Source: a virus
Length of the DNA stretch: 13,036 nt
IMG/VR virus record: IMGVR_UViG_3300045988_138655
Reading direction: 5' to 3' (one strand)
Shown piece after piece: positions 1 to 13,036 of the stretch. Each line of letters starts with the position of its first letter. The first letter of the stretch is position 1. Position numbers and translations under genes: made by a program. The notes below the pieces were generated by a model. It worked only from the letters and a program-made list of their open reading frames with translations. It was not told where the DNA came from and ran no database searches.

Positions 1-43
1 GGCAAGACAAACCTGTGAACAAATTATTAACATTTCCCCAATC

Positions 44-76
44 TGTTCATATTTTGTTCATATTTTGTTCATAATT
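44..76. repeat. Three tandem 11-bp repeats (TGTTCATATTT x2, TGTTCATAATT) near the left terminus
   Basis: Read directly at 44-54, 55-65 and 66-76. An inverted copy of the TGTTCA core (TGAACA) lies at 15-20. Confidence 0.9.
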
Positions 77-157
77 GCAAAACTGGCATGATTCTTGCTA
101 GGCAACTATAACAATAAATTGTCTGACAATATAGCACAAAGTCCGACAGTTATTCTG

Positions 158-186
158 TTGAAATCTTAGTTCATATGGAGTATAAT
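158..186 (+). promoter_or_regulatory. SigA-type promoter in the left ITR, firing inward
   Basis: TTGAAA (158-163), 17-nt spacer, TATAAT (181-186). It is followed by GGAGG (224-228), 8 nt before the ATG at 237. Confidence 0.6.
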
Positions 187-236
187 TAAACCATCAAATA
201 AATCAAGCAACAGCCATAAGGTAGGAGGAACACTAA

Positions 237-611
237 ATGAAATCAAAATACAAAAAAATCAAGTACACGAACACCGGAGTAAAAGCCCCGGTAGTGACTT
301 GTTTAAAATCCAACCCAAATCTTAGTAGATCAGACATGATAGAATTAAATTATCCAGAAATAAAAATCATTGTAAGAAGAGTTTTTCGAAAAACTATGTA
401 CAATCGTGCTGAGTCTCTCATTGGTATCATGTATGATAATTTTACTAATTCATTTTTTGTTCATGATACTATTAATGATGCAAGAGTTGTATGTGAGAAT
501 CTTTATTTGATCATTAAAAAACCAGAATTAGATTTTCGCATAACAACTAGGGAATACGATAGCATTTATGAGTATATGAAGGGAGTATTATACAATGCCA
601 AGGAATCCTAA
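237..611 (+). CDS. Hypothetical early protein, 124 aa (left ITR copy)
   Basis: ORF with a GGAGG SD and the ITR promoter. It is identical to 12426..12800(-). No family was recognised. The N-terminus is basic (KSKYKKIKY). Confidence 0.7.
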   Translation: MKSKYKKIKYTNTGVKAPVVTCLKSNPNLSRSDMIELNYPEIKIIVRRVFRKTMYNRAESLIGIMYDNFTNSFFVHDTINDARVVCENLYLIIKKPELDFRITTREYDSIYEYMKGVLYNAKES

Positions 612-870
612 AATCCCAACCACGTCGAGGGGTCTGAACGTCAACCCAAACATGCTAACTACGCTGGAGACTCTACAGCTCCGCAGGCAGCTTGCAAAAC
701 GTCTGAATCAGCGTATGCGCAGATTAAAAGCAAAAGGTTTTGATTCAGAGGTTGGAGGAGCGTACGCAGACTATCAGGACTGGTCTGTAGCTTATCATGA
801 GGTATTTAAAGAGAAAAAATTCTATAAAGCTACTCAGAAAGTTTCTGATAGATGCAAAATAATACGATAG
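595..870 (+). CDS. Chimeric 91-aa ORF: first 62 aa of the terminal-protein candidate fused to 29 unrelated residues (truncated paralogue or pseudogene)
   Basis: Residues 1-62 are identical to those of the 206-aa ORF because they lie inside the ITR. The sequences diverge exactly at the ITR boundary (781/782). The stop codon (868-870) sits inside the terminator stem. Whether the product is functional is unknown. Confidence 0.5.
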   Translation: MPRNPKIPTTSRGLNVNPNMLTTLETLQLRRQLAKRLNQRMRRLKAKGFDSEVGGAYADYQDWSVAYHEVFKEKKFYKATQKVSDRCKIIR

Positions 871-896
871 CCCAGCGGATGCTGGGCTATCGTATT
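861..896. terminator. Bidirectional rho-independent terminator
   Basis: A perfect 15-16 bp stem (atacgatagcccagc / gctgggctatcgtat) with loop ggat. It is followed by TTTTCT on the plus strand and ATTTTG on the minus strand. It lies between the convergent 91-aa ORF and the last late gene. Confidence 0.85.
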
Positions 897-2171: not shown

Positions 2172-2861
2172 TTAATAAGTTAATAAAAGCAGATCCTGTG
2201 CAAATAGTCCGGTGCAATAATCAATAAAGCTTTGTTTCCGTAACTCAAGCTCTGACTGAATCATCTGCTGTGAAGTAGTAACTCCAATGTTGCCATGAAT
2301 ACGCCCGGAGTGCTTATTCTGTCCGGTCTCCCGGCTTGTTTCACCCTTTCCATATTCAAACGTATTTTTGTTTTCCCCAGAACTTTGTACTTTTGTGCTA
2401 GCCCCATACTCAGTAGTTGTTTTTTCGTTGGGGCTATAGTTTGCATCATTAAAAGCACTGACCTCATTTATAGCTGTATCTGCCCCAGAGTTTGTCGTAG
2501 TGGTTCCCTGTCCAGCTTCTGCCCTGTTTATGTCCTGTCCGGAACTTTGACTTGTTCGTGTCATATCCGGGCTGTCTGTCCATTCTTCATGGCGGTCATA
2601 GTTTTCAATCGGTTCATAGTTAAGTAAGTCTAACACGTTATAAACCTTGTCAATGCTACTTTTCCATTTCCTGCTCCATGCAGGAATAGCACTCTCATGC
2701 ATAAACTCCCAGTCCGGATATAAAGGCTCGCAGTCTCCATAGGACAGAAGCAAACTGTCGATAAAGTTCTGTCTATCTGCTGATTCTGGAAATTCCATTT
2801 TATCAAATAAATTTTCATTCCATTCATAAAGCCCTGCTATCGTTATCTTATAAAGTCCCAT
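2172..2861 (-). CDS. Lower collar (phi29 gp11-position) protein candidate, 229 aa
   Basis: It lies immediately downstream of the portal gene and overlaps it by 14 nt. GGAGGTG lies 7 nt before the ATG. It has a long S/T/G/N-rich central segment. The functional call rests on position only. Confidence 0.4.
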   Translation of the reverse strand: MGLYKITIAGLYEWNENLFDKMEFPESADRQNFIDSLLLSYGDCEPLYPDWEFMHESAIPAWSRKWKSSIDKVYNVLDLLNYEPIENYDRHEEWTDSPDMTRTSQSSGQDINRAEAGQGTTTTNSGADTAINEVSAFNDANYSPNEKTTTEYGASTKVQSSGENKNTFEYGKGETSRETGQNKHSGRIHGNIGVTTSQQMIQSELELRKQSFIDYCTGLFAQDLLLLTY

Positions 2862-3768
2862 ATGATTTCACCTCCGCAGTTTCATAGCTTCTGATCTTGA
2901 TGGACAAGTTCATCTCAGGGTAAAGCCTGTTTGTCATGTCAACTCCCGCTTGCATGGTTTCAAGCCAAGTAGTTAATCGTGTCACGGCTTCTGCATCATT
3001 TTTGCTTGTCTCAAGCACATTCAGACGTTCTTTTTTGTCAGATCCGACAGATGGAATACCGACCTCTGTGTCAAACTGATCCAGAAGCTTTTCAAAAACC
3101 TCAATCAGCTCCGGTGCAATAAAGTTTTGCTTCAGATCCTTGTTGAAGCTTTCCCATGCATCCTGCTTGCTTCCTTGTCTGTCTTCCGTTTTTATTGATA
3201 CGTCAAAAGCTTCAACTGGGTTACCAGCTTGTATGCTGTCATAGATTTTTTTCAGTGTCTGAGCTGCTGTTTTGTTTTTCGCTGCAATCAGAAAAGCAAG
3301 TTTTGAATTAAACACATTCATGTCAAAAGCAGACGCAACAAGTGCCAGTTTGTAGCTGTAAAAGCCAATGATATCTCCAATCCCACAAAAAGTCGGTCTG
3401 ATATAGATGACAGAACAGTCTTTCCCGATCTCCATATCCTCTATGTCAATTGTAGCGTTGCTTGCATACGTGTGTATGCTTGCTGTCGTTGGTTTAAAGT
3501 AAATATTGTATCCTGTCAGCATTGGATACTGACCAATCAGTCCATAAAGATCTGTCTTTGTGATGCAAATATACCCTCCAAAAAGTAGGCAGTATTTGAA
3601 ATAGTCAATATCAATGCTTCCGTTGTATTTTATGTCAAGAACAGAGCATACACGCTCATAAAGCATCCGGTCAAACGTATCAGTATATAAGCTGTCGACT
3701 TTTATTCCTGATGGCTGGAAGTAATTTGTGCATATGTTGATCTTGTCAAAATTCATAGGTACCCACAT
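2848..3768 (-). CDS. Portal / upper collar connector, phi29 gp10-like, 306 aa
   Basis: Its size is close to phi29 gp10 (309 aa). By-eye similarity to gp10 as recalled: KKERLNVLETSKNDAEA vs KKERMVTDEVSSNDEQ, and NRLYPEMNLSIKIR vs NELYGLNVKVKFR. It follows the tail-knob gene, as in phi29. Confidence 0.75.
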   Translation of the reverse strand: MWVPMNFDKINICTNYFQPSGIKVDSLYTDTFDRMLYERVCSVLDIKYNGSIDIDYFKYCLLFGGYICITKTDLYGLIGQYPMLTGYNIYFKPTTASIHTYASNATIDIEDMEIGKDCSVIYIRPTFCGIGDIIGFYSYKLALVASAFDMNVFNSKLAFLIAAKNKTAAQTLKKIYDSIQAGNPVEAFDVSIKTEDRQGSKQDAWESFNKDLKQNFIAPELIEVFEKLLDQFDTEVGIPSVGSDKKERLNVLETSKNDAEAVTRLTTWLETMQAGVDMTNRLYPEMNLSIKIRSYETAEVKSYGTL

Positions 3769-6009: not shown

Positions 6010-6326
6010 ATTGTAACCTCCGTAAAATAATTCTCATTAATTTGCATGCTGGGTACTGTATCAATTAATACTTTCACATACGTATCATCTTTTGCGTTAT
6101 TTACGAGTTTAAAGTGTGATGCATCGGGGAAACCGTAATACGATTCAAATTTTAATTCGTACAATGCAGTGTATACACTTGTATTTATTAATGGAATAGT
6201 GTCATACTGCAAAACTACACCAGTAGCTGCCACATTCATTAAAAATCTTCTCACCGAAACAGATTCAAAAGGAAGTGAAACTACTATTGAACCACCAGCA
6301 GGTACCTTTATGTTTGCTGCTAACAT
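6006..6326 (-). CDS. Hypothetical protein, 106 aa, translationally coupled to the capsid gene (possible minor head protein)
   Basis: It shares a TAATG overlap with the upstream capsid gene and an ATGA overlap with the holin gene. It looks beta-rich. No family was recognised. Confidence 0.5.
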   Translation of the reverse strand: MLAANIKVPAGGSIVVSLPFESVSVRRFLMNVAATGVVLQYDTIPLINTSVYTALYELKFESYYGFPDASHFKLVNNAKDDTYVKVLIDTVPSMQINENYFTEVTI

Positions 6327-7522
6327 TATACTCCCTCCCCCAGCACGTAAAGAATCGCATTGTGCGTAAAGTTATTCCATGCATTAAAACGGTAATGGTC
6401 ATAGATGTTGTAGTAGCCACCTGCCGCATTGAATGGGGTAGATGCTGAGTACATCCACTGATTATTTACGCCCATCGCTCTACGATCGTAAAGTAAACCA
6501 AGTACATATGGCAGGCTTACAGCTGTAGTGGCTGTCTTTGAAACTCCGTTAGCATCAATAATGTTAGGTGTGATATTTATAGCCGGGCTGTCGAACTCCT
6601 GCCAGCCATTTACAAGCTCCATGTCGGCAATTTTCAAATACTTATCATTAAATACTTCCGGGAGTACCTGTGTTTCGCTGTCAACCCAAAAATCAGTGTA
6701 CATAAGCAACTTTTGATTCTCTGGTCTTGTGAATCGCAAGATGTTCTTTCCAGTCAGATTCATATGATACTTTGTGGTTCTGTCCTGCATCTTCTTTGAA
6801 TCTTTCTTAACTCTTGATACTACAAAAGCCATGAAATCTTTATGATGTTCAGGACTTAAAAGCAGCTTACGTGTGAGTTTTGTTCCATACTCTGTATTGT
6901 AAGCTTCTACCAGATCCACCTCATTTGTTCCAAGGGATGAGATACCAGCCATGAAGTTAAGCACCGTCAGTCTGCGTTTTGCTTCATTTCTGGATTCGAT
7001 ATCATTGTAATAAGCTATCATATAGCTACTTACAAACATCAGGAATTCTGCTTCGTTTGAGAAAGCAAGTGCCAGCTGATCCCGGAATCGTGTGATATGC
7101 GACTGTAGAACTTTACTGCCATAGAATTTCAACTCCACCAGTTTTGGAGCATTGATCTTGTACATATCAACCGACTGTCCATCAGCAAGCTGGTTTTCAC
7201 TCAAGTCTGTATTCCAATCCTGGGATGCTTCTGCGTCCAATGGAAGTGAAATGATCTCACGTGTGATAGCACCCCAACGTTCGTTATCCTCAATGATTGA
7301 CCGGAACACTCCGGATCTGTATTTTTCCTTTTCAAAATAGGTTTTTCCACACCACTGACTGAGTGCTTTCAATGTAGGTTCTACACCTGTCCGCAACATG
7401 GTTTCCCCGACAGATACAAAAGAGCTTGTGTCTACTGCTTTGATATTCTCCTGTCCGGTAGCCATCTTGTACAGATCATTAATGATCAAATAGGCATCCT
7501 GCACAACTAAACTGTTTGCCAT
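6326..7522 (-). CDS. Major capsid protein candidate, 398 aa
   Basis: It is the largest head-module ORF and lies directly downstream of the scaffold-like gene, as gene 8 follows gene 7 in phi29. It has a strong SD (AAGGAGGTG). No motif-level proof is available by eye. Confidence 0.6.
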   Translation of the reverse strand: MANSLVVQDAYLIINDLYKMATGQENIKAVDTSSFVSVGETMLRTGVEPTLKALSQWCGKTYFEKEKYRSGVFRSIIEDNERWGAITREIISLPLDAEASQDWNTDLSENQLADGQSVDMYKINAPKLVELKFYGSKVLQSHITRFRDQLALAFSNEAEFLMFVSSYMIAYYNDIESRNEAKRRLTVLNFMAGISSLGTNEVDLVEAYNTEYGTKLTRKLLLSPEHHKDFMAFVVSRVKKDSKKMQDRTTKYHMNLTGKNILRFTRPENQKLLMYTDFWVDSETQVLPEVFNDKYLKIADMELVNGWQEFDSPAINITPNIIDANGVSKTATTAVSLPYVLGLLYDRRAMGVNNQWMYSASTPFNAAGGYYNIYDHYRFNAWNNFTHNAILYVLGEGV

Positions 7523-7535
7523 TATTTACACCTCC

Positions 7536-7871
7536 TTAGTTCATAAGTTTCATTAGATCTTCTGCCACATTGTCGGAAGTACGCTGAGTAGATCCAGTTT
7601 TTCCGGATGCAGACAGGTTCCCCGCCTGTAACGTAGCAGTCAAAGTATTAATCGCTGTCAGCAGAGCTGCATTGGTTGCATCCTGTCCCGTCTGTGCTGT
7701 CATATTCAGTGAACTATTTGCAGGCTTCTGTCCCAGATTCTGAATCTGTTCTGTAGCCTGTGGGCTTGTGATCTGATTAAGCCCAGTCATGTTCTGTGCG
7801 TTCAGAATCCCAATGATCTCATTTTTTGAGAATCCAAGTTTACCAAGTTCTAAAATCTGATCTACTTTCAT
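7536..7871 (-). CDS. Scaffolding protein candidate, 111 aa
   Basis: It is a small, helical or low-complexity Q/T/N/A-rich protein immediately upstream of the capsid gene, the position of phi29 gp7 (98 aa). The SD GGAG lies upstream of the ATG at 7871. Confidence 0.5.
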   Translation of the reverse strand: MKVDQILELGKLGFSKNEIIGILNAQNMTGLNQITSPQATEQIQNLGQKPANSSLNMTAQTGQDATNAALLTAINTLTATLQAGNLSASGKTGSTQRTSDNVAEDLMKLMN

Positions 7872-7896
7872 TTTATCTCCTTTTCTGCCGGAAGTG

Positions 7897-7978
7897 AAAA
7901 ATTAAAATAGGTCAGAGCTTCCGGGTTATCATCCCATGGCATCCGCTTCCGGCGGTCGATGTAGCCACTCTGACCTAG
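7897..7978 (-). ncRNA. Candidate structured RNA: pRNA-like small RNA or late-operon leader/attenuator
   Basis: On the minus strand a 10-bp helix (7977-7968 pairs with 7917-7908) encloses about 50 GC-rich nt. The interior includes the hairpin CCGC-cggaa-GCGG. The helix is followed by UUUUAAUUUUU (7907-7897). The element starts at the predicted +1 of the upstream promoter. It is the most GC-rich noncoding patch in an AT-rich genome. Its function is inferred only. Confidence 0.3.
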
Positions 7979-7982
7979 CTCT

Positions 7983-8011
7983 AATATACCTGTTTCAAAA
8001 TAGTTTGTCAA
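7983..8011 (-). promoter_or_regulatory. Near-consensus SigA-type promoter (candidate late promoter)
   Basis: Minus strand: TTGACA (8011-8006), 17-nt spacer (aactattttgaaacagg), TATATT (7988-7983). It overlaps the last codons and the stop of the ATPase gene. The predicted start is near 7976. Confidence 0.6.
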
Positions 8012-9041
8012 TATAAAATTTTACAGAAATATTCTGGTAGCTGATTCTATTTGTCAGACGATAGCTGTCAATCCAGCTATAAAAACATCTAAACTGATCT
8101 TTTCCATGCTGGTTGTCTTCAAAAACATCTCTACAAGTGCCAGAAATATGATCAGAAACATACAAGTGCGCTTTTGATTTATGTTCGTAAATGGCCACTT
8201 TTCCAATCACACAAATTAGCTTGTATTGCCTGATGTCCTCTGATCTGACAGCCGAGACGTCATCATATGCAAATTCATTCGATAAAGCCATCTTTGCAAA
8301 GTCTGTGTCACCCGATAAAGCACGATACAACGCGGTATCTTTCTTCTTTTCTGAAATCGGGGAATCATTAATCAAAAGCAAGATGATTCCTCTCTCTTTT
8401 AGCATGGAAAACTCCTGCTTGTACTTTTTCATTCGTTCCAAGATTGGCAGCAATCCAAAAGCTTGCACAATTGCATTATCTAATGTGTTTGAGTTGGAAG
8501 CAAGCCACCAGCGGAATGGCTTCTTTCCTTGCAATTCTCTGTTTGCCGATATGGTCTCAACAGCATTCAGAAAAGCATCATCTTCCCCACTGATTGACTT
8601 AGCTATCTTCTCCGGGATGAACTCATCATAAATCCCCTCAGAGAAATCAGATCCAGAGAATCCGCGGTTGTTATGCATTGAGGTGAGACAGAATGCTTCA
8701 CCTCTATATACTTCCTCTTCCTCAACCTGCTCTACAATCTTAATACGTCCGTATTCACCTCTGGGCTTTTCAAAATGAAAAAACCTGTTCATATCTTTGT
8801 TTATGTCCAGCCATGGATCAAACTCCGGAAGAAATACTTTTTTCAGTTGCTCTTTTGTACGTCTCATATAGATGATCTTCTCATTTATTGAAAAAACATC
8901 ATTAATGAAGTGTTGGAAAATTCCATATGTTTTTCCGGTTCTTCTTGCTCCAATAATGAATATGAAATTAATTTTATTTTTATCGGCAAGCTGCGCAATC
9001 CTTGGAACATCCAGCCAACCATTTCTGTCATAGATATTCAT
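7995..9041 (-). CDS. DNA packaging (encapsidation) ATPase, phi29 gp16-like, 348 aa
   Basis: Walker A NFIFIIGARRTGKTYG resembles recalled phi29 gp16 NFVIGARGIGKSY. IYMRRT resembles IYVRRY. Walker B region IYDEFIPEK resembles VFDEFIREK. The start is moved to the ATG at 9041, which has GGAGGAGG 8 nt upstream and a TAATG overlap with the preceding gene. The 31-codon upstream extension in the ORF track overlaps the SpoVG-like gene and has no SD. Confidence 0.85.
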   Translation of the reverse strand: MNIYDRNGWLDVPRIAQLADKNKINFIFIIGARRTGKTYGIFQHFINDVFSINEKIIYMRRTKEQLKKVFLPEFDPWLDINKDMNRFFHFEKPRGEYGRIKIVEQVEEEEVYRGEAFCLTSMHNNRGFSGSDFSEGIYDEFIPEKIAKSISGEDDAFLNAVETISANRELQGKKPFRWWLASNSNTLDNAIVQAFGLLPILERMKKYKQEFSMLKERGIILLLINDSPISEKKKDTALYRALSGDTDFAKMALSNEFAYDDVSAVRSEDIRQYKLICVIGKVAIYEHKSKAHLYVSDHISGTCRDVFEDNQHGKDQFRCFYSWIDSYRLTNRISYQNISVKFYIDKLF

Positions 9042-9340
9042 TATCGAAATCCTCCTCCGGAGGATGCAGGCTGTGAAGTCTGATTGCACTCGTTGTATTT
9101 TTTGATGCAAGCATCCTGCAAAAGCTGTGTCCATTCTTTATCGAGTGAATAGACTGAATTATAGTATTTTCCATCTTTTCCTTTTGTGCTGGGGAATGAC
9201 AGGAAAAGCCCGTCTTTACCCTCAACCAGTGTAAGTCCTTTAATTACAAGGGTACCATCCAGTTCGAGATCAACAAAAGCTTTTGTTTTTGATGTACCAG
9301 AATAAGGTTTGCAATTAATTTTTACGTTTGATTTTAACAT
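9041..9340 (-). CDS. SpoVG-fold nucleic-acid-binding protein, 99 aa
   Basis: It aligns by eye with recalled B. subtilis SpoVG: KAFVDLELDGTLVIKGLTLVEGKDGLFLSFPSTKGKDGKYY...QDACIKKY vs [41 protein letters not shown]...QDAVLNEY. The SD AAGGAG lies upstream of the ATG at 9340. Confidence 0.7.
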   Translation of the reverse strand: MLKSNVKINCKPYSGTSKTKAFVDLELDGTLVIKGLTLVEGKDGLFLSFPSTKGKDGKYYNSVYSLDKEWTQLLQDACIKKYNECNQTSQPASSGGGFR

Positions 9341-9681: not shown

Positions 9682-11805
9682 CTAACTATATACGGTATCT
9701 TCCATTTCAAACGGCAACGGCAGTCCTGTTTCCTTGTCATATGGAATCGTGTGATCTAACTCGTACTCTGTATCACTCAATCGGATAGCACATCCATACT
9801 CAATCTTGCACCCGTCAACAGTCACTTCATTGATTCCATCATGGAAAATATACTCCGTCTTCATTTTCCATTTGGGATCCTGCCAATCGTTCGATCTGCG
9901 GTAGTTCCTGCGGAATGTCAAATCATTTTTGAAAACAAATCCTTTTCGAAAGTTTGTGATATCATCATCCAAGCAATATATGCCCTCTTTTGGTACTCCT
10001 GCAACCGTCAGATGCAAGGATGCATCTTTTTTCAGTCGGTAGCAATACCGCTTGCTACCCATTGTTATAAATTCACTGTATATTCCATCAAACTCACCAA
10101 TTCCTAACCGGAAAGTTTTTTCTTTATATTCTACCACTCCAATGTTTCTCTTTTGCGACATTTCAATGATTGATTGATTAAACTCATCCAATTTATCATG
10201 ATCCCAGTCTGTACCCTTTACAGAATCTGTGTCTGAGTATAACCACCTCCGGCAGCATGAACCCAGCCGGAACAGAAAAGCCTGTGCATAGGCTGTAATC
10301 CATACCCCCCACTGGTAGGGCATGAAGCTGTTCTTATTCCGATAGAACTTTTCAAGCTCTTTTTCCCTGTCCTCTGGTTCTTTTGCTTCCCACTCTCCTG
10401 ACTCCATAAGCTCTGTACATAAGATTTGAATGATTCTCTGAACCGTCATGCCGTACATGCCATTTAGCTCCCCCTTTGATATCATGTAGTTTGCTTCGTC
10501 CAAACCTTTAAGGGTGCATTTTTTAAAAAACAATTCCATTAAGTAATCAGTGAACCACTCTGGCAAGTAGTCTTTTGTAGCTCTCATGACTTTAGACACA
10601 TCAGCCCAGTCATAATCATAACTTGACAGGATAACTTGTAAATCTGGATCCGTAAAGGGATAAATGACAAGATCAGCATTAACGATCTTTCCATTATCCA
10701 GATTATCATGAAACTGTTCTTTTTTGCTTTTTGCTTCCGGAAAAACACATACTTTTGCTTTTGAAAAAGCCAACGGGGGCATGGGACAGTCTTTTTTCAA
10801 TCTCAGATTCTTAAGTCTTATATAGCCGGAAAAAGCATAATCTTCTTTCAGTTCCATAATGTCTTTTAATGTGATATTGTTAGTATAACAAAACCTAGTC
10901 ATTGGAAACTTACAATAGCACATCCAAGCAATATAGGAACTTACAAAATCATAGCACTCAACAGGTTCTTTTATTAATTGATTCACGTAATACCTATTGG
11001 CATGGGTATAGCCACCATGATAGCAATCAAGCATTTGATCGTATTGCTCCAACGTCAGAGCCATTTTCTCAAATTGCTTTCTCCATTTCTTGTCTTTTCT
11101 TGCTCTCCTGCGGGCGTTCGTCCGGATAAAGCCCGTATTGGTCAGCGGACAGTTCGCCACGTTAAATCCTCGTTGGTCTATGTATTTACGGAGTGCTTTG
11201 CAAAGACTGATCGTATCCGTACAGGCATAGGCTATTTCTTTTGCTGTACGTGGACTTGCCGGAGTTCGAAACTTCTTATAGTCCCATGTTCCGACAGCTT
11301 TCTCAGTTGTTCCCATGTCTTTACAAAGCTTCTCAAGTGATCTTTGTGTCAAGATGAGACTATCACGGAACTCAATGCCTTGTCCTGTCCATTTCATAAA
11401 AATATATTTATGTGTCTTAGCAGCCAGTGATTTATCAGGATTCCCCCACTTTTGGAAAAAATGGTTACGAAGAAAAACATAGTCATATGGAAAGTTATGC
11501 ACATAAAAGCGTACAAGGTGGCTATCGTCAGCATGTAAAGTTGTGCAAATCCTGTCGATCGTATCAATCAGATCAGAAACATGGTTGCCGTAAATACAAC
11601 AATCATCCTCTATCGTGATTGTCCAATCCGTGACAAAGCCAATGTTTTTGTTAAGATAGACAAAAGTTTCCGTATCAACAGTTATTATTTTTTCATAGAC
11701 ACCTAGATAATGACCTGCATTGGATCTCCGGATAAAATCACCATTGAATAGTCGCATATAATCATAGTTTTTAAAATAAATAACTGGATATCCTGCGACT
11801 ACCAT
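9682..11805 (-). CDS. Family B DNA polymerase, protein-primed type, 707 aa
   Basis: All motifs are readable: ExoI TVDTETF (D44/E46 by my count), ExoII HNFPYDYVF (N104/D108), ExoIII YACTDT (Y193/D197), motif A YDFVSSYIAW (D286), motif B KGELNGMYG (K444), motif C YSDTDS (residues 523-528, verified at nt 10239-10222) and KxY GSKRYCY (K585/Y587). It lies adjacent to a terminal-protein candidate in a genome with ITRs. Confidence 0.9.
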   Translation of the reverse strand: MVVAGYPVIYFKNYDYMRLFNGDFIRRSNAGHYLGVYEKIITVDTETFVYLNKNIGFVTDWTITIEDDCCIYGNHVSDLIDTIDRICTTLHADDSHLVRFYVHNFPYDYVFLRNHFFQKWGNPDKSLAAKTHKYIFMKWTGQGIEFRDSLILTQRSLEKLCKDMGTTEKAVGTWDYKKFRTPASPRTAKEIAYACTDTISLCKALRKYIDQRGFNVANCPLTNTGFIRTNARRRARKDKKWRKQFEKMALTLEQYDQMLDCYHGGYTHANRYYVNQLIKEPVECYDFVSSYIAWMCYCKFPMTRFCYTNNITLKDIMELKEDYAFSGYIRLKNLRLKKDCPMPPLAFSKAKVCVFPEAKSKKEQFHDNLDNGKIVNADLVIYPFTDPDLQVILSSYDYDWADVSKVMRATKDYLPEWFTDYLMELFFKKCTLKGLDEANYMISKGELNGMYGMTVQRIIQILCTELMESGEWEAKEPEDREKELEKFYRNKNSFMPYQWGVWITAYAQAFLFRLGSCCRRWLYSDTDSVKGTDWDHDKLDEFNQSIIEMSQKRNIGVVEYKEKTFRLGIGEFDGIYSEFITMGSKRYCYRLKKDASLHLTVAGVPKEGIYCLDDDITNFRKGFVFKNDLTFRRNYRRSNDWQDPKWKMKTEYIFHDGINEVTVDGCKIEYGCAIRLSDTEYELDHTIPYDKETGLPLPFEMEDTVYS

Positions 11806-11821: not shown

Positions 11822-12442
11822 CTATGGTCTATATTTCAAAGCTTCTGCTTCGCCAGAAAAACCAAGTTGCTTTGCTATTGCATCGGCAGCATCTGGATCA
11901 GTTCTCTCCCGGAATTTTTCCAGATCTTTTATGATCTCAGAAACCGTAGAATCATCCAGTTTATGACTGATGATTCTCATTGTCTGTTTACTGTCATAAA
12001 ATCGTTGCATCCACTTCCATACCTCAGATTTGAAAAATAATTTCATTTCTTCTTTTGACTTGAAATTGATTCCATATTCAGTGCTGAGGGTTTTTTGGCG
12101 TTGATCTATGATCTCTCTCCAGCCCTGAACAGTGCTGCTCTTTTCTTTCAATATCTTTTGGATGGCTTTCACCTGAGCTCGCGGTAATCCCTTGTATTTT
12201 TCATTTTCCAAGTTTTCCGGGATTGTTGATCTACCCGGGAAAAATCTTGCAAGCAAGTCCTGATAGTCTGCGTACGCTCCTCCAACCTCTGAATCAAAAC
12301 CTTTTGCTTTTAATCTGCGCATACGCTGATTCAGACGTTTTGCAAGCTGCCTGCGGAGCTGTAGAGTCTCCAGCGTAGTTAGCATGTTTGGGTTGACGTT
12401 CAGACCCCTCGACGTGGTTGGGATTTTAGGATTCCTTGGCAT
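11822..12442 (-). CDS. Terminal protein (priming protein) candidate, 206 aa
   Basis: It lies immediately upstream of the polymerase gene, as gene 3 precedes gene 2 in phi29. The basic N-terminus MPRNPKIPTT...QLAKRLNQRMRRLKAKGFD resembles recalled phi29 TP MARSPRIRIK...RLVKNTKAKIARTKKKYGVD. The priming residue cannot be identified by eye. Codons 1-62 lie inside the right ITR. Confidence 0.6.
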   Translation of the reverse strand: MPRNPKIPTTSRGLNVNPNMLTTLETLQLRRQLAKRLNQRMRRLKAKGFDSEVGGAYADYQDLLARFFPGRSTIPENLENEKYKGLPRAQVKAIQKILKEKSSTVQGWREIIDQRQKTLSTEYGINFKSKEEMKLFFKSEVWKWMQRFYDSKQTMRIISHKLDDSTVSEIIKDLEKFRERTDPDAADAIAKQLGFSGEAEALKYRP

Positions 12443-12800
12443 TGTATAATACTCCCTTCATATACTCATAAATGCTATCGTATTCCCTAGTTGTTATGCG
12501 AAAATCTAATTCTGGTTTTTTAATGATCAAATAAAGATTCTCACATACAACTCTTGCATCATTAATAGTATCATGAACAAAAAATGAATTAGTAAAATTA
12601 TCATACATGATACCAATGAGAGACTCAGCACGATTGTACATAGTTTTTCGAAAAACTCTTCTTACAATGATTTTTATTTCTGGATAATTTAATTCTATCA
12701 TGTCTGATCTACTAAGATTTGGGTTGGATTTTAAACAAGTCACTACCGGGGCTTTTACTCCGGTGTTCGTGTACTTGATTTTTTTGTATTTTGATTTCAT
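12426..12800 (-). CDS. Hypothetical early protein, 124 aa (right ITR copy, first gene of the replication operon)
   Basis: It is identical to 237..611(+). It has the same promoter and SD, and it overlaps the terminal-protein candidate start by 17 nt. Confidence 0.7.
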   Translation of the reverse strand: MKSKYKKIKYTNTGVKAPVVTCLKSNPNLSRSDMIELNYPEIKIIVRRVFRKTMYNRAESLIGIMYDNFTNSFFVHDTINDARVVCENLYLIIKKPELDFRITTREYDSIYEYMKGVLYNAKES

Positions 12801-12850
12801 TTAGTGTTCCTCCTACCTTATGGCTGTTGCTTGATTTATTTGATGGTTTA

Positions 12851-12879
12851 ATTATACTCCATATGAACTAAGATTTCAA
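12851..12879 (-). promoter_or_regulatory. SigA-type early promoter in the right ITR, driving the 124-aa / terminal protein / polymerase operon
   Basis: ITR mirror of 158-186: TTGAAA-17-TATAAT on the minus strand. Confidence 0.6.
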
Positions 12880-12960
12880 CAGAATAACTGTCGGACTTTG
12901 TGCTATATTGTCAGACAATTTATTGTTATAGTTGCCTAGCAAGAATCATGCCAGTTTTGC

Positions 12961-12993
12961 AATTATGAACAAAATATGAACAAAATATGAACA
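12961..12993. repeat. Mirror copy of the 11-bp tandem repeats near the right terminus
   Basis: ITR counterpart of 44-76: aattatgaaca aaatatgaaca aaatatgaaca. Confidence 0.9.
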
Positions 12994-13036
12994 GATTGGG
13001 GAAATGTTAATAATTTGTTCACAGGTTTGTCTTGCC

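What the first reader, a model, noticed from the sequence alone, without database searches (positions are those of the whole stretch)
7885..8011. Near-consensus promoter followed directly by a GC-rich ~70-nt stem-loop and U-tract between the ATPase and scaffold genes
On the minus strand, TTGACA-17-TATATT (8011-7983) places +1 near 7976. A 10-bp helix starts right there (7977-7968 pairs with 7917-7908). It encloses about 50 GC-rich nt that include the hairpin CCGC-cggaa-GCGG. UUUUAAUUUUU follows, and the scaffold SD and ATG follow that. The heptamer CCGGAAG occurs twice inside the element (complement of 7946-7952 and of 7918-7924). Its complement CUUCCGG occurs once, just after the U-tract (complement of 7888-7894), which allows alternative or intermolecular pairing. 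There are three readings. (a) It is a discrete RNA of about 80 nt. gp16-type ATPase plus gp10-type connector motors in phi29 relatives need a pRNA, and no other pRNA is evident here. (b) It is a promoter-proximal terminator that gates the late operon, like lambda PR'-tR', which would require an unidentified antiterminator. (c) It is a 5' stabilising stem-loop. A 24-codon ORF (7942-7868, MPWDDNPEALTYFNFSLPAEKEIK) also runs through it and ends in an ATGA overlap with the scaffold start, but its SD is poor.
Basis: partly seen in the sequence, partly recalled or inferred. Interest (0 to 1): 0.75.

Follow-up and report, generated by a model that had tools for sequence, protein, structure and literature searches.

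The report
Miniature pRNA-like RNA in gut phage
Between the packaging ATPase and scaffold genes of this small phi29-like gut phage lies a conserved ~70-80-nt RNA gene whose fold is a half-size copy of the phi29 packaging RNA (pRNA), a molecule so far reported only from Bacillus phages (one unconfirmed Cp-1 proposal aside), so it may show that RNA-dependent DNA packaging is far more widespread.

Summary
In detail: promoter, 10-11-bp helix, inner hairpin, U-tract and repeated heptamers sit exactly where stated.

The element is a conserved structured RNA. A covariance model finds one copy in 72 of 72 close relatives. In a 22-sequence alignment, 19 of 27 base pairs show compensatory changes (slid controls 3-6).

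The fold is a three-way junction. P1 closes the 5'/3' ends. P2 carries a 5'-side bulge and a 4-bp hairpin with loop CGGAA. P3 is a hairpin whose loop is complementary to the P2 bulge. This is the layout of phi29 pRNA (A helix, C helix, CE bulge, E hairpin, D hairpin, CE/D kissing) at 70 instead of 117 nt.

The same layout, with covarying bulge-loop pairing, occurs in at least nine more lineages of gut phi29-like phages. These include the isolates Amedibacillus AD70P3, Clostridium CI55P1 and Eggerthella LE1-1. Gene neighbours differ between lineages. No Rfam family matches, pRNA included.

Best reading (about 0.5): a discrete pRNA-type packaging RNA that starts at the promoter and ends at P1 plus the U-tract, with read-through giving late mRNA. 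Main rival: a cis-acting late-operon leader. The 24-codon ORF is not conserved. Function is untested.

The parts
7983..8011 (-). Sigma-A-type promoter: TTGACA (8011-8006), 17 nt, TATATT (7988-7983). The -35 hexamer overlaps the last ATPase codons and the stop codon lies in the spacer. The predicted start is at or 1-2 nt before the first P1 base (about 7977).
   Evidence: A TTGAnA-17-TAnnnT promoter sits at the same short distance from P1 in all related families. This includes families where it is not inside a coding region: L152 and L328.
7967..7977 (-). P1 5' strand, UAGGUCAGAGU. Equivalent to the pRNA A helix. Pairs with 7918-7908.
   Evidence: 8 of 11 pairs show double compensatory changes in A1 and 10 of 11 in A4.
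7964..7966 (-). P2a 5' strand, GGC. Equivalent to the C helix. Pairs with GCC at 7940-7938.
   Evidence: GC to AU to GU changes. GC/CG/AU types in A4.
7956..7963 (-). 5'-side bulge of P2, UACAUCGA. Equivalent to the CE loop. AUCG (7960-7957) is complementary to UGAU in the P3 loop.
   Evidence: The four kissing pairs in A4 columns 25-28/57-60 are 100% paired. Types are AU:14/GC:8, CG:11/UA:11, CG:22 and AU:19/GU:3. These columns were not part of the covariance model. In the window itself the pairing is only 3 Watson-Crick pairs plus one G-U, which is not significant alone (p = 0.47).
7943..7955 (-). P2b hairpin, CCGC-CGGAA-GCGG. Equivalent to the E helix and E loop. The pentaloop CGGAA is invariant in the family.
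   Evidence: 100% paired with CG to UA double changes. A CNGAA pentaloop recurs in the distant families L152, L153, L154, L155, L157, L292 and L328.
7938..7940 (-). P2a 3' strand, GCC.
7923..7935 (-). P3 hairpin, GGG-AUGAUAA-CCC. Equivalent to the D helix and D loop. Loop bases UGAU (7931-7928) pair with the P2 bulge.
   Evidence: The stem is invariant in A1 and has one GC to AU change in A4. For loop covariation see the bulge entry.
7908..7918 (-). P1 3' strand, GCUCUGACCUA.
7897..7907 (-). U-rich tract UUUUAAUUUUU directly after P1. Probable 3'-end-forming, leaky intrinsic terminator.
   Evidence: 66 of 70 unique family members have at least 5 T in the 10 nt after P1. The terminator scan did not call it because the 'loop' is a branched 48-nt domain. 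The tract is weak or absent in the L154, L156 and L157 families.
7887..7894 (-). CUUCCGGC, complementary to GCCGGAAG (7953-7946: the end of the P2b 5' strand, the E loop and the first 3' base). It lies 5 nt upstream of the SD. It is an alternative pairing partner available only in read-through transcripts, or in trans.
   Evidence: 8-nt Watson-Crick complement; 40 of 5000 shuffles do as well. Comparable complements to other parts of the RNA occur in clades B1, C and D and in L152. They are absent in B2, L328, L153 and L154.
7869..7882 (-). SD AAGGAG (7882-7877) and ATG (7871-7869) of the 111-aa scaffold-like gene, the first gene of the late operon.
   Evidence: Synteny with scaffold followed by Phi29_MCP.

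Best explanation
The element is a discrete, conserved RNA gene of about 70 nt of fold plus a U-rich tail.

**Shown**
- It adopts a three-way junction. P1 pairs the 5' and 3' ends. P2 carries a 7-8-nt 5'-side bulge followed by a 4-bp hairpin with the invariant loop CGGAA. P3 is a short hairpin whose loop is complementary to the P2 bulge.
- This is the architecture of phi29 prohead RNA (A helix, C helix, CE bulge, E hairpin, D hairpin, CE/D loop pairing) at about 60% of the size.
- The phage has the phi29-type motor proteins and no canonical pRNA.

**Inferred**
- Transcription starts at the first P1 base from the near-consensus promoter.
- Most transcripts end at P1 plus the U-tract, releasing the small RNA.
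- Read-through transcripts become the late (scaffold, capsid and so on) mRNA.
- In read-through transcripts the segment CUUCCGGC can invade the E hairpin and unfold the RNA domain.
- The released RNA assembles on the prohead portal vertex through bulge-loop kissing between neighbouring copies and helps dock the gp16-type ATPase, as pRNA does in phi29.
For: **1. Real structured RNA**
- The covariance model finds one hit in each of 72 of 72 close relatives, always on the gene strand just after the ATPase gene.
- It also finds strong hits (E about 1e-7 to 1e-15, the two weakest cut off at contig ends) in the 40%-identity ATPase family, where the RNA lies elsewhere in the genome.
- Covariation: 13 of 26 pairs (A1) and 19 of 27 pairs (A4) have double changes, against 1-6 in slid controls.
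- Frequent G-U pairs fix the transcribed strand.

**2. pRNA architecture**
- The Rfam RF00044 consensus on phi29 reads: A helix, 1 nt, C helix, 9-nt 5' bulge, 4-bp E helix with a 6-nt loop, UUU, 6-bp D helix with a 5-nt loop, A'.
- Independent MFE folds of the window RNA and most of the 13 relatives folded give the same order of elements; three (L364, L367, L152) do not, and L154 only in part.

**3. Bulge-loop complementarity is conserved and covaries**
- Window superfamily: AUCG/UGAU, ACCA/UGGU, AGCCA/UGGCU.
- L157 superfamily: an 8-bp helix, 100% paired, 4 pairs with double changes and at least 4 separate variants, while P1 and P2b stay nearly invariant.
- LE1-1 family: GGGGC/GCCCC changes to GUGCA/UGCAC.
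- Across 14 lineage variants, Fisher p is about 1e-8 against composition-preserving shuffles.

**4. Right kind of phage**
- Podovirus_Gp16 ATPase, gp10 connector, Phi29_MCP and protein-primed PolB are present.
- The ATPase matches gp16 of the phi29 motor structure 7JQQ.
- There is no RF00044 hit in the window or in ten related genomes.

**5. No fixed gene neighbour, as expected for a trans-acting RNA**
- After the ATPase and before the scaffold gene in the window.
- Far from the ATPase, before the scaffold gene, in L328 and L152.
- Before the ATPase in CI55P1.
- Mid-operon before ORF18 and the ATPase, and far from scaffold and MCP, in LE1-1.
- Separated from the scaffold gene by a tRNA in L156, so RNase P would release it.

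**6. Intermediate form**
- LE1-1 carries a 97-107-nt version. It has a bulged 14-18-bp outer helix, a 10-bp C helix, a 4-bp E helix with a 6-nt loop and a 6-bp D helix. These dimensions are close to phi29's.
Against: - No experiment: no transcript ends, no RNA in proheads.
- Rfam's pRNA model does not match the window or LE1-1, even at E <= 10 in a 121-261-nt search space.
- P1 is only 11 bp here and ranges from 6 to 18 bp across families. The phi29 A helix that binds gp16 is about 26 bp.
- Whether the bulge-loop pairing is intermolecular (as in pRNA) or an intramolecular tertiary contact cannot be decided from sequence. With P2a and P3 both about 3 bp long, an intramolecular contact looks sterically possible here.
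- In the window itself the kissing is only 3 Watson-Crick pairs plus one G-U.
- In most families the RNA sits at the 5' end of the morphogenesis operon, which also fits a cis-acting leader.
- The connector N-terminus lacks the basic RKR stretch that binds pRNA in phi29 (sequence; the role of the motif is from my own knowledge).
- The ATPase C-terminal domain is not alignable to gp16's pRNA-binding CTD.
- No copy was located in Clostridium phage CI644P6.
Confidence: 0.5

Rival explanations
1. Cis-acting leader of the late operon. The folded junction closes P1 next to the U-tract and terminates most transcripts started at the constitutive-looking promoter, as in lambda PR'-tR'. A phage or host factor, or simple leakiness, sets read-through. 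In read-through mRNA the downstream complement refolds the leader and influences scaffold translation. The bulge-loop pairing would be an intramolecular tertiary contact that stabilises a protein-binding fold.
For: - The element lies directly behind a strong promoter in every family examined.
- In the window, L152, L153, L154, L156 and L328 families it lies ahead of late genes.
- A U-rich tail is conserved in the window family.
- Downstream segments complementary to the RNA interior recur in 5 of 10 lineages, at p about 0.005-0.04 each.
- A phage-encoded SpoVG-like nucleic-acid-binding protein is available as a possible partner.
- A 2023 survey listed unnamed candidate structured RNAs upstream of Podovirus_gp16 genes as possibly cis-regulatory (PMC10690425).
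Against: - The U-tract is weak or absent in the L154, L156 and L157 families.
- The first downstream gene differs: scaffold, a small membrane protein, ATPase, ORF18 or a tRNA.
- In L156 a tRNA separates the RNA from the mRNA.
- In LE1-1 the RNA is in the middle of the rightward gene block.
- The CI644P6 late promoter runs straight into the SD with no such leader.
- Junction nucleotides are poorly conserved, while helices and the kissing pairs covary rapidly. This is unlike riboswitches or protein-binding leaders.
- The downstream complement is missing in half the lineages.
Confidence: 0.25
2. Another trans-acting small RNA unrelated to packaging. Examples are a regulator of host or phage mRNAs acting through the exposed CGGAA loop or the bulge, or a decoy or anti-defence RNA.
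For: - It is a discrete promoter-to-terminator unit.
- The single-stranded loop CNGAA is conserved across families.
- The same phage's late mRNA contains complements to the RNA interior.
Against: - Nothing explains why such an RNA should copy the pRNA layout.
- Nothing explains why it should be confined to phages with gp16-type motors.
- No conserved target was found.
- The complementary mRNA segments hit different parts of the RNA in different clades.
Confidence: 0.12
3. A 5'-terminal stabilising stem-loop. P1 begins at +1 and protects the late mRNA from 5'-end-dependent decay in a Firmicute host.
For: - P1 starts within a few nucleotides of the predicted start site in every family.
- From my own knowledge, 5' stem-loops of this kind stabilise Bacillus mRNAs such as the aprE leader.
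Against: - A simple hairpin would suffice. The conserved three-way junction, CNGAA loop and covarying bulge-loop pairing are unexplained.
- The U-tract would cut off most transcripts in the window family.
- In L156 tRNA processing would remove the structure from the mRNA.
Confidence: 0.08
4. A 24-codon leader peptide (7942-7868) translationally coupled to the scaffold gene.
For: The ORF exists in the window and ends in an ATGA overlap with the scaffold start.
Against: - In 70 unique relatives the equivalent ORF is 2, 7, 14, 21-43 codons long or has no ATG.
- The frame shifts with indels in the U-tract.
- Substitutions follow base-pairing rules, not codon rules.
Confidence: 0.01

Closest known systems
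phi29 prohead/packaging RNA (pRNA; Rfam RF00044, 'Phage_pRNA')
   Same: - The order of elements is the same: an outer helix pairing the 5' and 3' ends, a three-way junction, and two arms.
- One arm is a helix, a 5'-side bulge and a 4-bp hairpin. The other arm is a hairpin.
- The bulge and the hairpin loop are Watson-Crick complementary and covary.
- Sequence is poorly conserved while structure is conserved.
- The RNA starts at the promoter's +1 (inferred here).
- It is encoded by phages with a gp16 ATPase, gp10 connector, phi29-type capsid protein and protein-primed polymerase.
   Different: - The fold is 70 nt instead of 117 nt (174 nt as transcribed).
- The A helix is 11 bp and unbulged, against about 26 bp with bulges.
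- The C helix is 3-4 bp against 9, and the D helix 3 bp against 6.
- There are 4-5 unpaired nucleotides between D and A, against none.
- It is not detected by RF00044.
- It is encoded at the head of the late operon behind a late-position promoter, not at the genome end behind early promoter A1.
- Its function and oligomerisation are untested.
- According to a 2024 review and a 2025 search paper, pRNAs are known only from Bacillus-type phages (PMC11476376, PMC12670572). One older, unconfirmed proposal concerns Streptococcus phage Cp-1 (cited in PMC6266182).
Lambda PR'-tR' unit (6S RNA) with Q antitermination (from my own knowledge)
   Same: - A strong promoter is followed within about 80 nt by a stem plus U-tract ahead of the late genes.
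- A short terminated RNA is the default product.
   Different: - There is no Q-like gene and no evidence of antitermination.
- The terminated RNA here is a conserved, covarying three-way junction rather than an incidental product.
- The U-tract is not conserved in sister families.
Three-way-junction RNAs with loop-loop or loop-bulge tertiary contacts, such as the purine riboswitch and natural hammerheads (from my own knowledge)
   Same: - About 70 nt, with P1 closing a three-way junction.
- Two short arms whose distal unpaired regions are complementary.
   Different: - There is no Rfam hit at E <= 10.
- Junction nucleotides are not conserved between families.
- No conserved catalytic or ligand-binding core is apparent.
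[quoted passage not shown]
   Same: They may include the CI55P1- or LE1-1-type copies, which lie upstream of the ATPase gene.
   Different: - They were listed only as possible cis-regulatory candidates.
- No structure, kissing interaction or link to pRNA is mentioned in the main text.
- The supplement was not available, so identity could not be checked.

Membership tests
pRNA (phi29 prohead RNA, RF00044) | Significant match to the family covariance model | tested here: not met
   RF00044 scores 145 bits on phi29. It gives no hit at E <= 10 on the window, on the LE1-1 gap, or at the gathering threshold on ten related genomes.
pRNA (phi29 prohead RNA, RF00044) | 5' and 3' ends paired in an outer (A) helix that closes a three-way junction | tested here: met
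   P1 is 7977-7967 with 7918-7908. 8-10 of 11 pairs show compensatory changes. MFE and RNAalifold agree.
pRNA (phi29 prohead RNA, RF00044) | Arm 1 is C helix, 5'-side (CE) bulge, then a short E hairpin. Arm 2 is the D hairpin. | tested here: met
   The consensus structure line of RF00044 compared with the folds of the window RNA and 13 relatives shows the same order of elements in most; the MFE folds of L364, L367 and L152 differ. The E helix is 4 bp in both.
pRNA (phi29 prohead RNA, RF00044) | CE-bulge bases complementary to D-loop bases, maintained by covariation | tested here: met
   A4 columns 25-28/57-60 are 100% paired with AU to GC and UA to CG changes. The L157 superfamily has an 8-bp helix with 4 covarying pairs. 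For 14 lineage variants, Fisher p is about 1e-8. Caveat: the window's own pairing is 3 Watson-Crick pairs plus one G-U.
pRNA (phi29 prohead RNA, RF00044) | That pairing is intermolecular and builds a ring of RNAs on the prohead | not testable with these tools
   Sequence cannot separate intra- from intermolecular pairing. The test needs mixed-mutant complementation, native gels or cryo-EM.
pRNA (phi29 prohead RNA, RF00044) | Size of about 117-174 nt with a long (about 26-bp), bulged A helix that docks gp16 | tested here: not met
   The window fold is 70 nt and P1 is 11 bp without bulges. The LE1-1 relatives are intermediate: 97-107 nt with a 14-18-bp bulged outer helix.
pRNA (phi29 prohead RNA, RF00044) | Encoded by a phage with a gp16-type ATPase and gp10-type connector and no terminase small subunit | tested here: met
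   PF05894, PF05352, PF25622 and PF03175 hits, PHROG hits and a match to 7JQQ gp16.
pRNA (phi29 prohead RNA, RF00044) | Binds proheads and is required for DNA packaging | not testable with these tools
   Experimental only.
Intrinsic (Rho-independent) terminator | A G+C-rich stem with a short loop, immediately followed by a U-tract | tested here: inconclusive
   The stem and U-rich tail are present and conserved in the window family (66 of 70 with at least 5 T in 10 nt). The 'loop' is a 48-nt branched domain, so the scan does not call it. Sister families lack a good U-tract.
Riboswitch / ligand-binding leader | Highly conserved junction or core nucleotides across distant hosts, plus an expression platform with mutually exclusive pairing | tested here: not met
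   J3/1 varies (GGAAG, GCAAG, AUAAG, UGAAA, AUAA, AAGA, AUG, UA). There is no Rfam match. The downstream alternative pairing is present in only 5 of 10 lineages and lies after the U-tract.

The most novel reading that the evidence does not exclude
These RNAs are genuine packaging RNAs. On this reading, pRNA-dependent DNA packaging is not a peculiarity of Bacillus phi29-type phages. It would be a general, probably ancestral, feature of small protein-primed podoviruses of gut Firmicutes and Actinobacteria (Guelinviridae and unclassified relatives). A natural minimal pRNA of 62-70 nt would retain only the three-way junction, the E hairpin and the interlocking bulge and loop. The rapid switching of the 8-bp interlocking sequence among near-identical phages (L157 family) would then be a specificity code that keeps the RNA rings of co-infecting phages apart.
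Probability: 0.45. Interest if true: 0.9.

Novelty: new variant of a known kind. Interest (0 to 1): 0.8.

Why it matters
**A question that becomes testable.** pRNA is the only known RNA component of a viral DNA-packaging motor. It is a workhorse of RNA nanotechnology. Reviews still describe it as unique to phi29 and related Bacillus phages (PMC11476376). How the nuclease-less gp16-type ATPase docks on the portal in all other phi29-like phages is an open question.

**Material is available.** A conserved, covarying RNA with the pRNA blueprint occurs in hundreds of gut phage genomes. It also occurs in cultured phages with known hosts: Amedibacillus AD70P3, Clostridium CI55P1 and Eggerthella LE1-1.

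**If it is a pRNA**, it defines the minimal natural pRNA. It extends RNA-dependent packaging across families and provides many orthogonal kissing pairs.

**If it is not a pRNA**, it is still a new, widespread, well-supported phage RNA family at the early/late boundary, and it is absent from Rfam.

Tried and rejected
- **Rfam.** Scans of the whole window and of the 121-nt core at E <= 10 returned only chance hits to snoRNA families and no pRNA.
- **tRNA or tmRNA.** None found.
- **Model R1 on distant genomes.** The covariance model built from the window family does not reach L152-L157, CI55P1, CI644P6, LE1-1, phi29 or Cp-1. Distant members had to be found by eye, by a CNGAA-pentaloop hairpin scan and by MFE folds.
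- **Generic descriptor search.** A Python search for P1/P2a/bulge/P2b/P3/kissing was too permissive. The true sites did not outrank random ones, so it was dropped.
- **IMG/VR pattern scan.** A DNA pattern for the conserved core returned only the same phage family.
- **Small ORF.** Rejected.
- **The two CCGGAAG copies as a conserved repeat.** Rejected, because the second copy varies.
- **Cp-1.** I checked the leader between mapped late start sites PL1 and PL2, the scaffold-MCP gap and the PE3 leader. No equivalent architecture was seen. The 1996 paper proposing a Cp-1 pRNA is not held.
- **CI644P6.** The late promoter abuts the SD, and no three-way junction was found in the 400-nt terminal non-coding region.
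- **A3 (LE1-1 family).** MAFFT mis-registers the inner helices because the E loop length differs, so only the outer helix and the kissing pairs could be counted there.
- **Automatic measurement of the -10-to-P1 distance.** The result is noisy in AT-rich flanks. The distance was read by anchoring on TTGACA plus 17 nt.
Full report
**1. The window**

The 13,036-bp window is a complete linear genome with perfect 781-bp inverted terminal repeats. Nearly all genes are on the minus strand, in this order:
- two small ORFs
- a type-B DNA polymerase (9682-11805)
- a SpoVG-like protein (9041-9340)
- a Podovirus_Gp16 ATPase (7995-9134)
- the element under study
- a 111-aa scaffold-like gene (7536-7871)
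- a Phi29_MCP capsid gene (6326-7522)
- a lysis/NlpC-P60 gene, a tail gene, a gp10 connector (2848-3768), a probable lower collar and a GDSL tail protein
- a strong terminator at 896-861

The ATPase matches gp16 in the phi29 motor structure 7JQQ. Its nearest database relatives come from human faeces, and the cultured relatives infect Amedibacillus and Clostridium innocuum-group hosts.

**2. The observation**

- The 70-nt core folds into P1 plus two inner hairpins with z about -3.
- The 141-nt stretch is not exceptional.
- Rfam 15 has nothing at this site, even at E <= 10 in a 121-nt search space, and there is no canonical pRNA anywhere in the window. There are no tRNAs.

**3. Conservation and covariation in the window's family**

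IMG/VR holds 339 relatives of the ATPase. In all 72 loci with ATPase identity of at least 63%, the element follows the ATPase stop codon. A covariance model built from 35 distinct copies finds exactly one hit per locus (72 of 72).

Substitutions obey base pairing.

| Helix | Variants seen |
|---|---|
| P1 | AGGUCAGAG/CUCUGACCU, AGGUCAACG/CGUUGACCU, AAGGGAAAAC/GUUUUCCCUU, AGGAAAGCA/UGCUUUCCU |
| P2b | CCGC/GCGG, CCGU/ACGG, CUGC/GCAG |
| P2a | GGC/GCC, AGC/GCU, GAC/GUC |

- In alignment A1, 95.3% of cells are paired and 13 of 26 pairs carry double changes. Slid controls give 1-3.
- RNAalifold predicts the same nested helices on its own.
- The same model also finds the RNA in the 40%-identity ATPase family, with E from about 1e-15 to 1e-7.
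- On the combined 22-sequence alignment A4, 19 of 27 pairs have double changes against 3-6 in slid controls.
- Many G-U pairs (for example U-G at 7967/7918) show that the structure belongs to the RNA of this strand.
- The 24-codon ORF is not conserved: 2-43 codons in most relatives, and no ATG in the four unique loci of clades C and D.

**4. A covarying long-range pairing**

The 5'-side bulge of P2 (UACAUCGA) contains AUCG. The P3 loop (AUGAUAA) contains UGAU. In register, other clades have ACCA/UGGU and AGCCA/UGGCU.

Pair types in A4 columns 25-28/57-60 are all 100% paired:
- AU:14 / GC:8
- CG:11 / UA:11
- CG:22
- AU:19 / GU:3

These columns were not part of the covariance model, so the alignment is not biased toward them. 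For the window alone the pairing is weak (3 Watson-Crick pairs plus one G-U; p = 0.47). The support comes from covariation.

**5. The same blueprint in distant phages**

Phages whose ATPases are only 25-35% identical carry an RNA with the same order of elements behind a TTGAnA-17-TAnnnT promoter. P1 begins at or within a few nucleotides of the predicted start in each.

| Phage or family | Bulge / P3-loop pairing |
|---|---|
| AD70P3 | AUCC/GGAU |
| MT836263 family | GGC/GCC, with G-U in one variant |
| MT836155 | GUCG/CGAC |
| MT836587 | UCC/GGA |
| MT835998 | GCUA/UAGC |
| MT835901 superfamily | see below |
| Clostridium phage CI55P1 | UACCA/UGGUA |
| Eggerthella phage LE1-1 family | GGGGC/GCCCC, changing to GUGCA/UGCAC |

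In the MT835901 superfamily the pairing is 8 bp long and switches between at least four variants:
- AAAAGGAA/UUCCUUUU
- AACAAGAG/CUCUUGUU
- AAGAUAAG/CUUAUCUU
- AAGACAAG/CUUGUCUU

P1 and P2b stay almost invariant through these switches. The helix is 100% paired and 4 of its 8 pairs carry double changes.

Independent MFE folds of most of the 14 representatives reproduce the nested architecture; L364, L367 and L152 do not, and L154 only in part. Across 14 lineage variants, the bulge-loop complementarity beats composition-preserving shuffles with a Fisher p of about 1e-8. The E-type hairpin usually carries a CNGAA pentaloop.

**6. Comparison with pRNA**

On phi29, Rfam's RF00044 consensus reads: A helix, 1 nt, C helix (9 bp), 9-nt 5'-side bulge, 4-bp E helix with a 6-nt loop, no 3' spacer, UUU, 6-bp D helix with a 5-nt loop, A'. 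The known intermolecular pairing joins the 3' end of the CE bulge (AACC) to the D loop (GGUU). That pairing is from my own knowledge and from PMC5066667.

The window RNA has the same elements in the same order, with shorter helices: P1 11 bp, P2a 3-4 bp, P2b 4 bp, P3 3 bp. It also has 4-5 unpaired nucleotides between P3 and P1'.

LE1-1's copy is intermediate: a 14-18-bp bulged outer helix, a 10-bp C helix, a 4-bp E helix with a 6-nt loop and a 6-bp D helix.

None of these RNAs is detected by RF00044. This is a structural and contextual resemblance, not demonstrated family membership.

The literature held here describes pRNA as known only in phi29 and related Bacillus phages (PMC11476376; PMC12670572). 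There is one unconfirmed older proposal for Cp-1. A 2023 survey mentions unnamed candidate RNAs upstream of gp16 genes as possibly cis-regulatory.

**7. Genomic position**

| Phage or family | Position of the RNA |
|---|---|
| Window family; AD70P3, MT836263, MT836155, MT836587, MT835901 families | after the ATPase, ahead of the next genes |
| L328 and MT835998 families | far from the ATPase, near one contig end, ahead of the scaffold or a small membrane-protein gene and MCP |
| CI55P1 | between polymerase and ATPase |
| LE1-1 | between the lysozyme gene and ORF18-ATPase, about 8 kb downstream of the scaffold and MCP genes |
| MT836587 | a tRNA begins 13 nt after P1, ahead of the scaffold gene, so RNase P should release the RNA |
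| CI644P6 | late promoter abuts the SD; no copy found |

The only constants are the promoter and the RNA itself. This favours a trans-acting product over control of a particular gene. A generic role as leader of the morphogenesis operon is still possible for most families.

**8. The 3' end and the downstream complement**

- In the window family a U-rich tail follows P1 (66 of 70 unique copies have at least 5 T in 10 nt). Promoter, P1 and tail therefore delimit an RNA of about 80 nt.
- Termination is probably leaky, because the late genes have no other obvious promoter. This is an inference.
- Sister families lack a convincing U-tract. Termination is therefore not the conserved function.
- Equally improbable complements (p about 0.005-0.04) to other parts of the RNA occur in clades B1, C and D and in MT835998. 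They are absent from four other lineages.
- This points to a recurrent but facultative device. I infer that it unfolds the RNA domain in read-through mRNA or tunes scaffold translation.

**9. Weighing the explanations**

That this is a real, conserved, structured RNA family is close to certain.

For a pRNA-type function:
- the element-for-element architecture
- the covarying, fast-switching bulge-loop pair
- restriction to phages with gp16/gp10 motors that lack a canonical pRNA
- an RNA 5' end fixed at +1
- variable gene neighbours
- the intermediate-sized LE1-1 form

Against a pRNA-type function:
- no experimental data
- a short P1 of variable length
- no RF00044 match
- a possible intramolecular reading of the kissing pair
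- no recognisable pRNA-binding motifs in the connector or the ATPase CTD
- the frequent position at the head of the late operon

I put about 0.5 on the packaging-RNA reading, about 0.25 on a cis-acting late leader or attenuator, and about 0.12 on another trans-acting role. A mere 5' stabiliser gets about 0.08 and the peptide about 0.01.

**10. Caveats**

- Most metagenomic relatives come from one large IMG/VR dataset (3300045988). The sequences are distinct, and independent GenBank and isolate genomes agree.
- Transcription start and end points are predictions.
- Structures of distant families rest on single-sequence folds plus within-family covariation. They do not rest on one superfamily alignment, because the tools could not take a hand-made alignment.

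Noticed in passing
window 1-781 and 12256-13036: There are perfect 781-bp inverted terminal repeats, so the window is a whole linear genome. Each repeat carries a promoter-like site (158-186 / 12879-12851), a complete 124-aa ORF and the first ~62 codons of the 206-aa ORF. That makes the 91-aa ORF at 595-870 a truncated, diverged copy of the 206-aa ORF. These repeats are far longer than phi29's 6-bp repeats.
   Followed up: partly
window 9041-9340 (-): The phage encodes a SpoVG-family protein (PF04026, E = 2e-16) just upstream of the ATPase. SpoVG proteins bind DNA and RNA, so this is a candidate regulator of the early/late switch or a partner of the RNA. I did not check whether the sister families also carry it.
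   Followed up: no
L156 (MT836587) 8491-8563 (-): A tRNA gene (Rfam, 64.8 bits) sits 13 nt after the RNA and before the scaffold gene. RNase P processing would therefore release the upstream RNA.
   Followed up: partly
L070 (clade C of the window family): Its bulge-loop pair is AACCA/UGGUU. This contains the same AACC/GGUU pair as phi29's right- and left-hand loops. It is probably coincidence.
   Followed up: no
L047 (IMGVR_UViG_3300045988_092829), just after the ATPase stop: There is a ~25-nt tandem duplication of the promoter region (TATATTGACAAATTATTCAAATAATCT x2), giving two promoters in tandem ahead of the RNA.
   Followed up: no
L239-L290 (MT835901 family), 100-nt spacer between the RNA and the SD: The spacer is a mosaic of at least four unrelated inserts. 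Each is bracketed by GUUUCUGAG...UUCAGAAAC-type long-range stems. Some repeat the P1 3' strand (CCCCCGC). They may be a 'domain II'-like appendage or alternative pairing partners.
   Followed up: no
L337 (LE1-1) 12640-12720: A second, very stable hairpin (CCUUUGACUUAGCCGCCCUCC...GGAGGGCGGC...GUCAAAGG) directly follows the pRNA-like RNA and precedes the SD of ORF18. The whole gap folds with z = -4.3.
   Followed up: no
window 861-896: A 16-bp G+C-rich hairpin with flanking A- and T-runs lies between the end of the late operon (902-2158, -) and the convergent ORF 595-870 (+). It is a likely bidirectional terminator. Rfam's weak 'BSnc120' hit here is just this hairpin.
   Followed up: no
window 8071-8044 (-): There is a second 11-of-12 promoter-like site (TTGACA-16-TAGAAT) inside the 3' end of the ATPase gene, 60 nt upstream of the promoter studied. 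Its conservation was not examined.
   Followed up: no
L154 family (L159-L238): Two different genes follow the RNA in otherwise near-identical genomes. One encodes MDANT...FPIAAFLL-type small membrane proteins and the other MNVYAVLAVLVF-type proteins. This indicates module exchange immediately downstream of the RNA.
   Followed up: no
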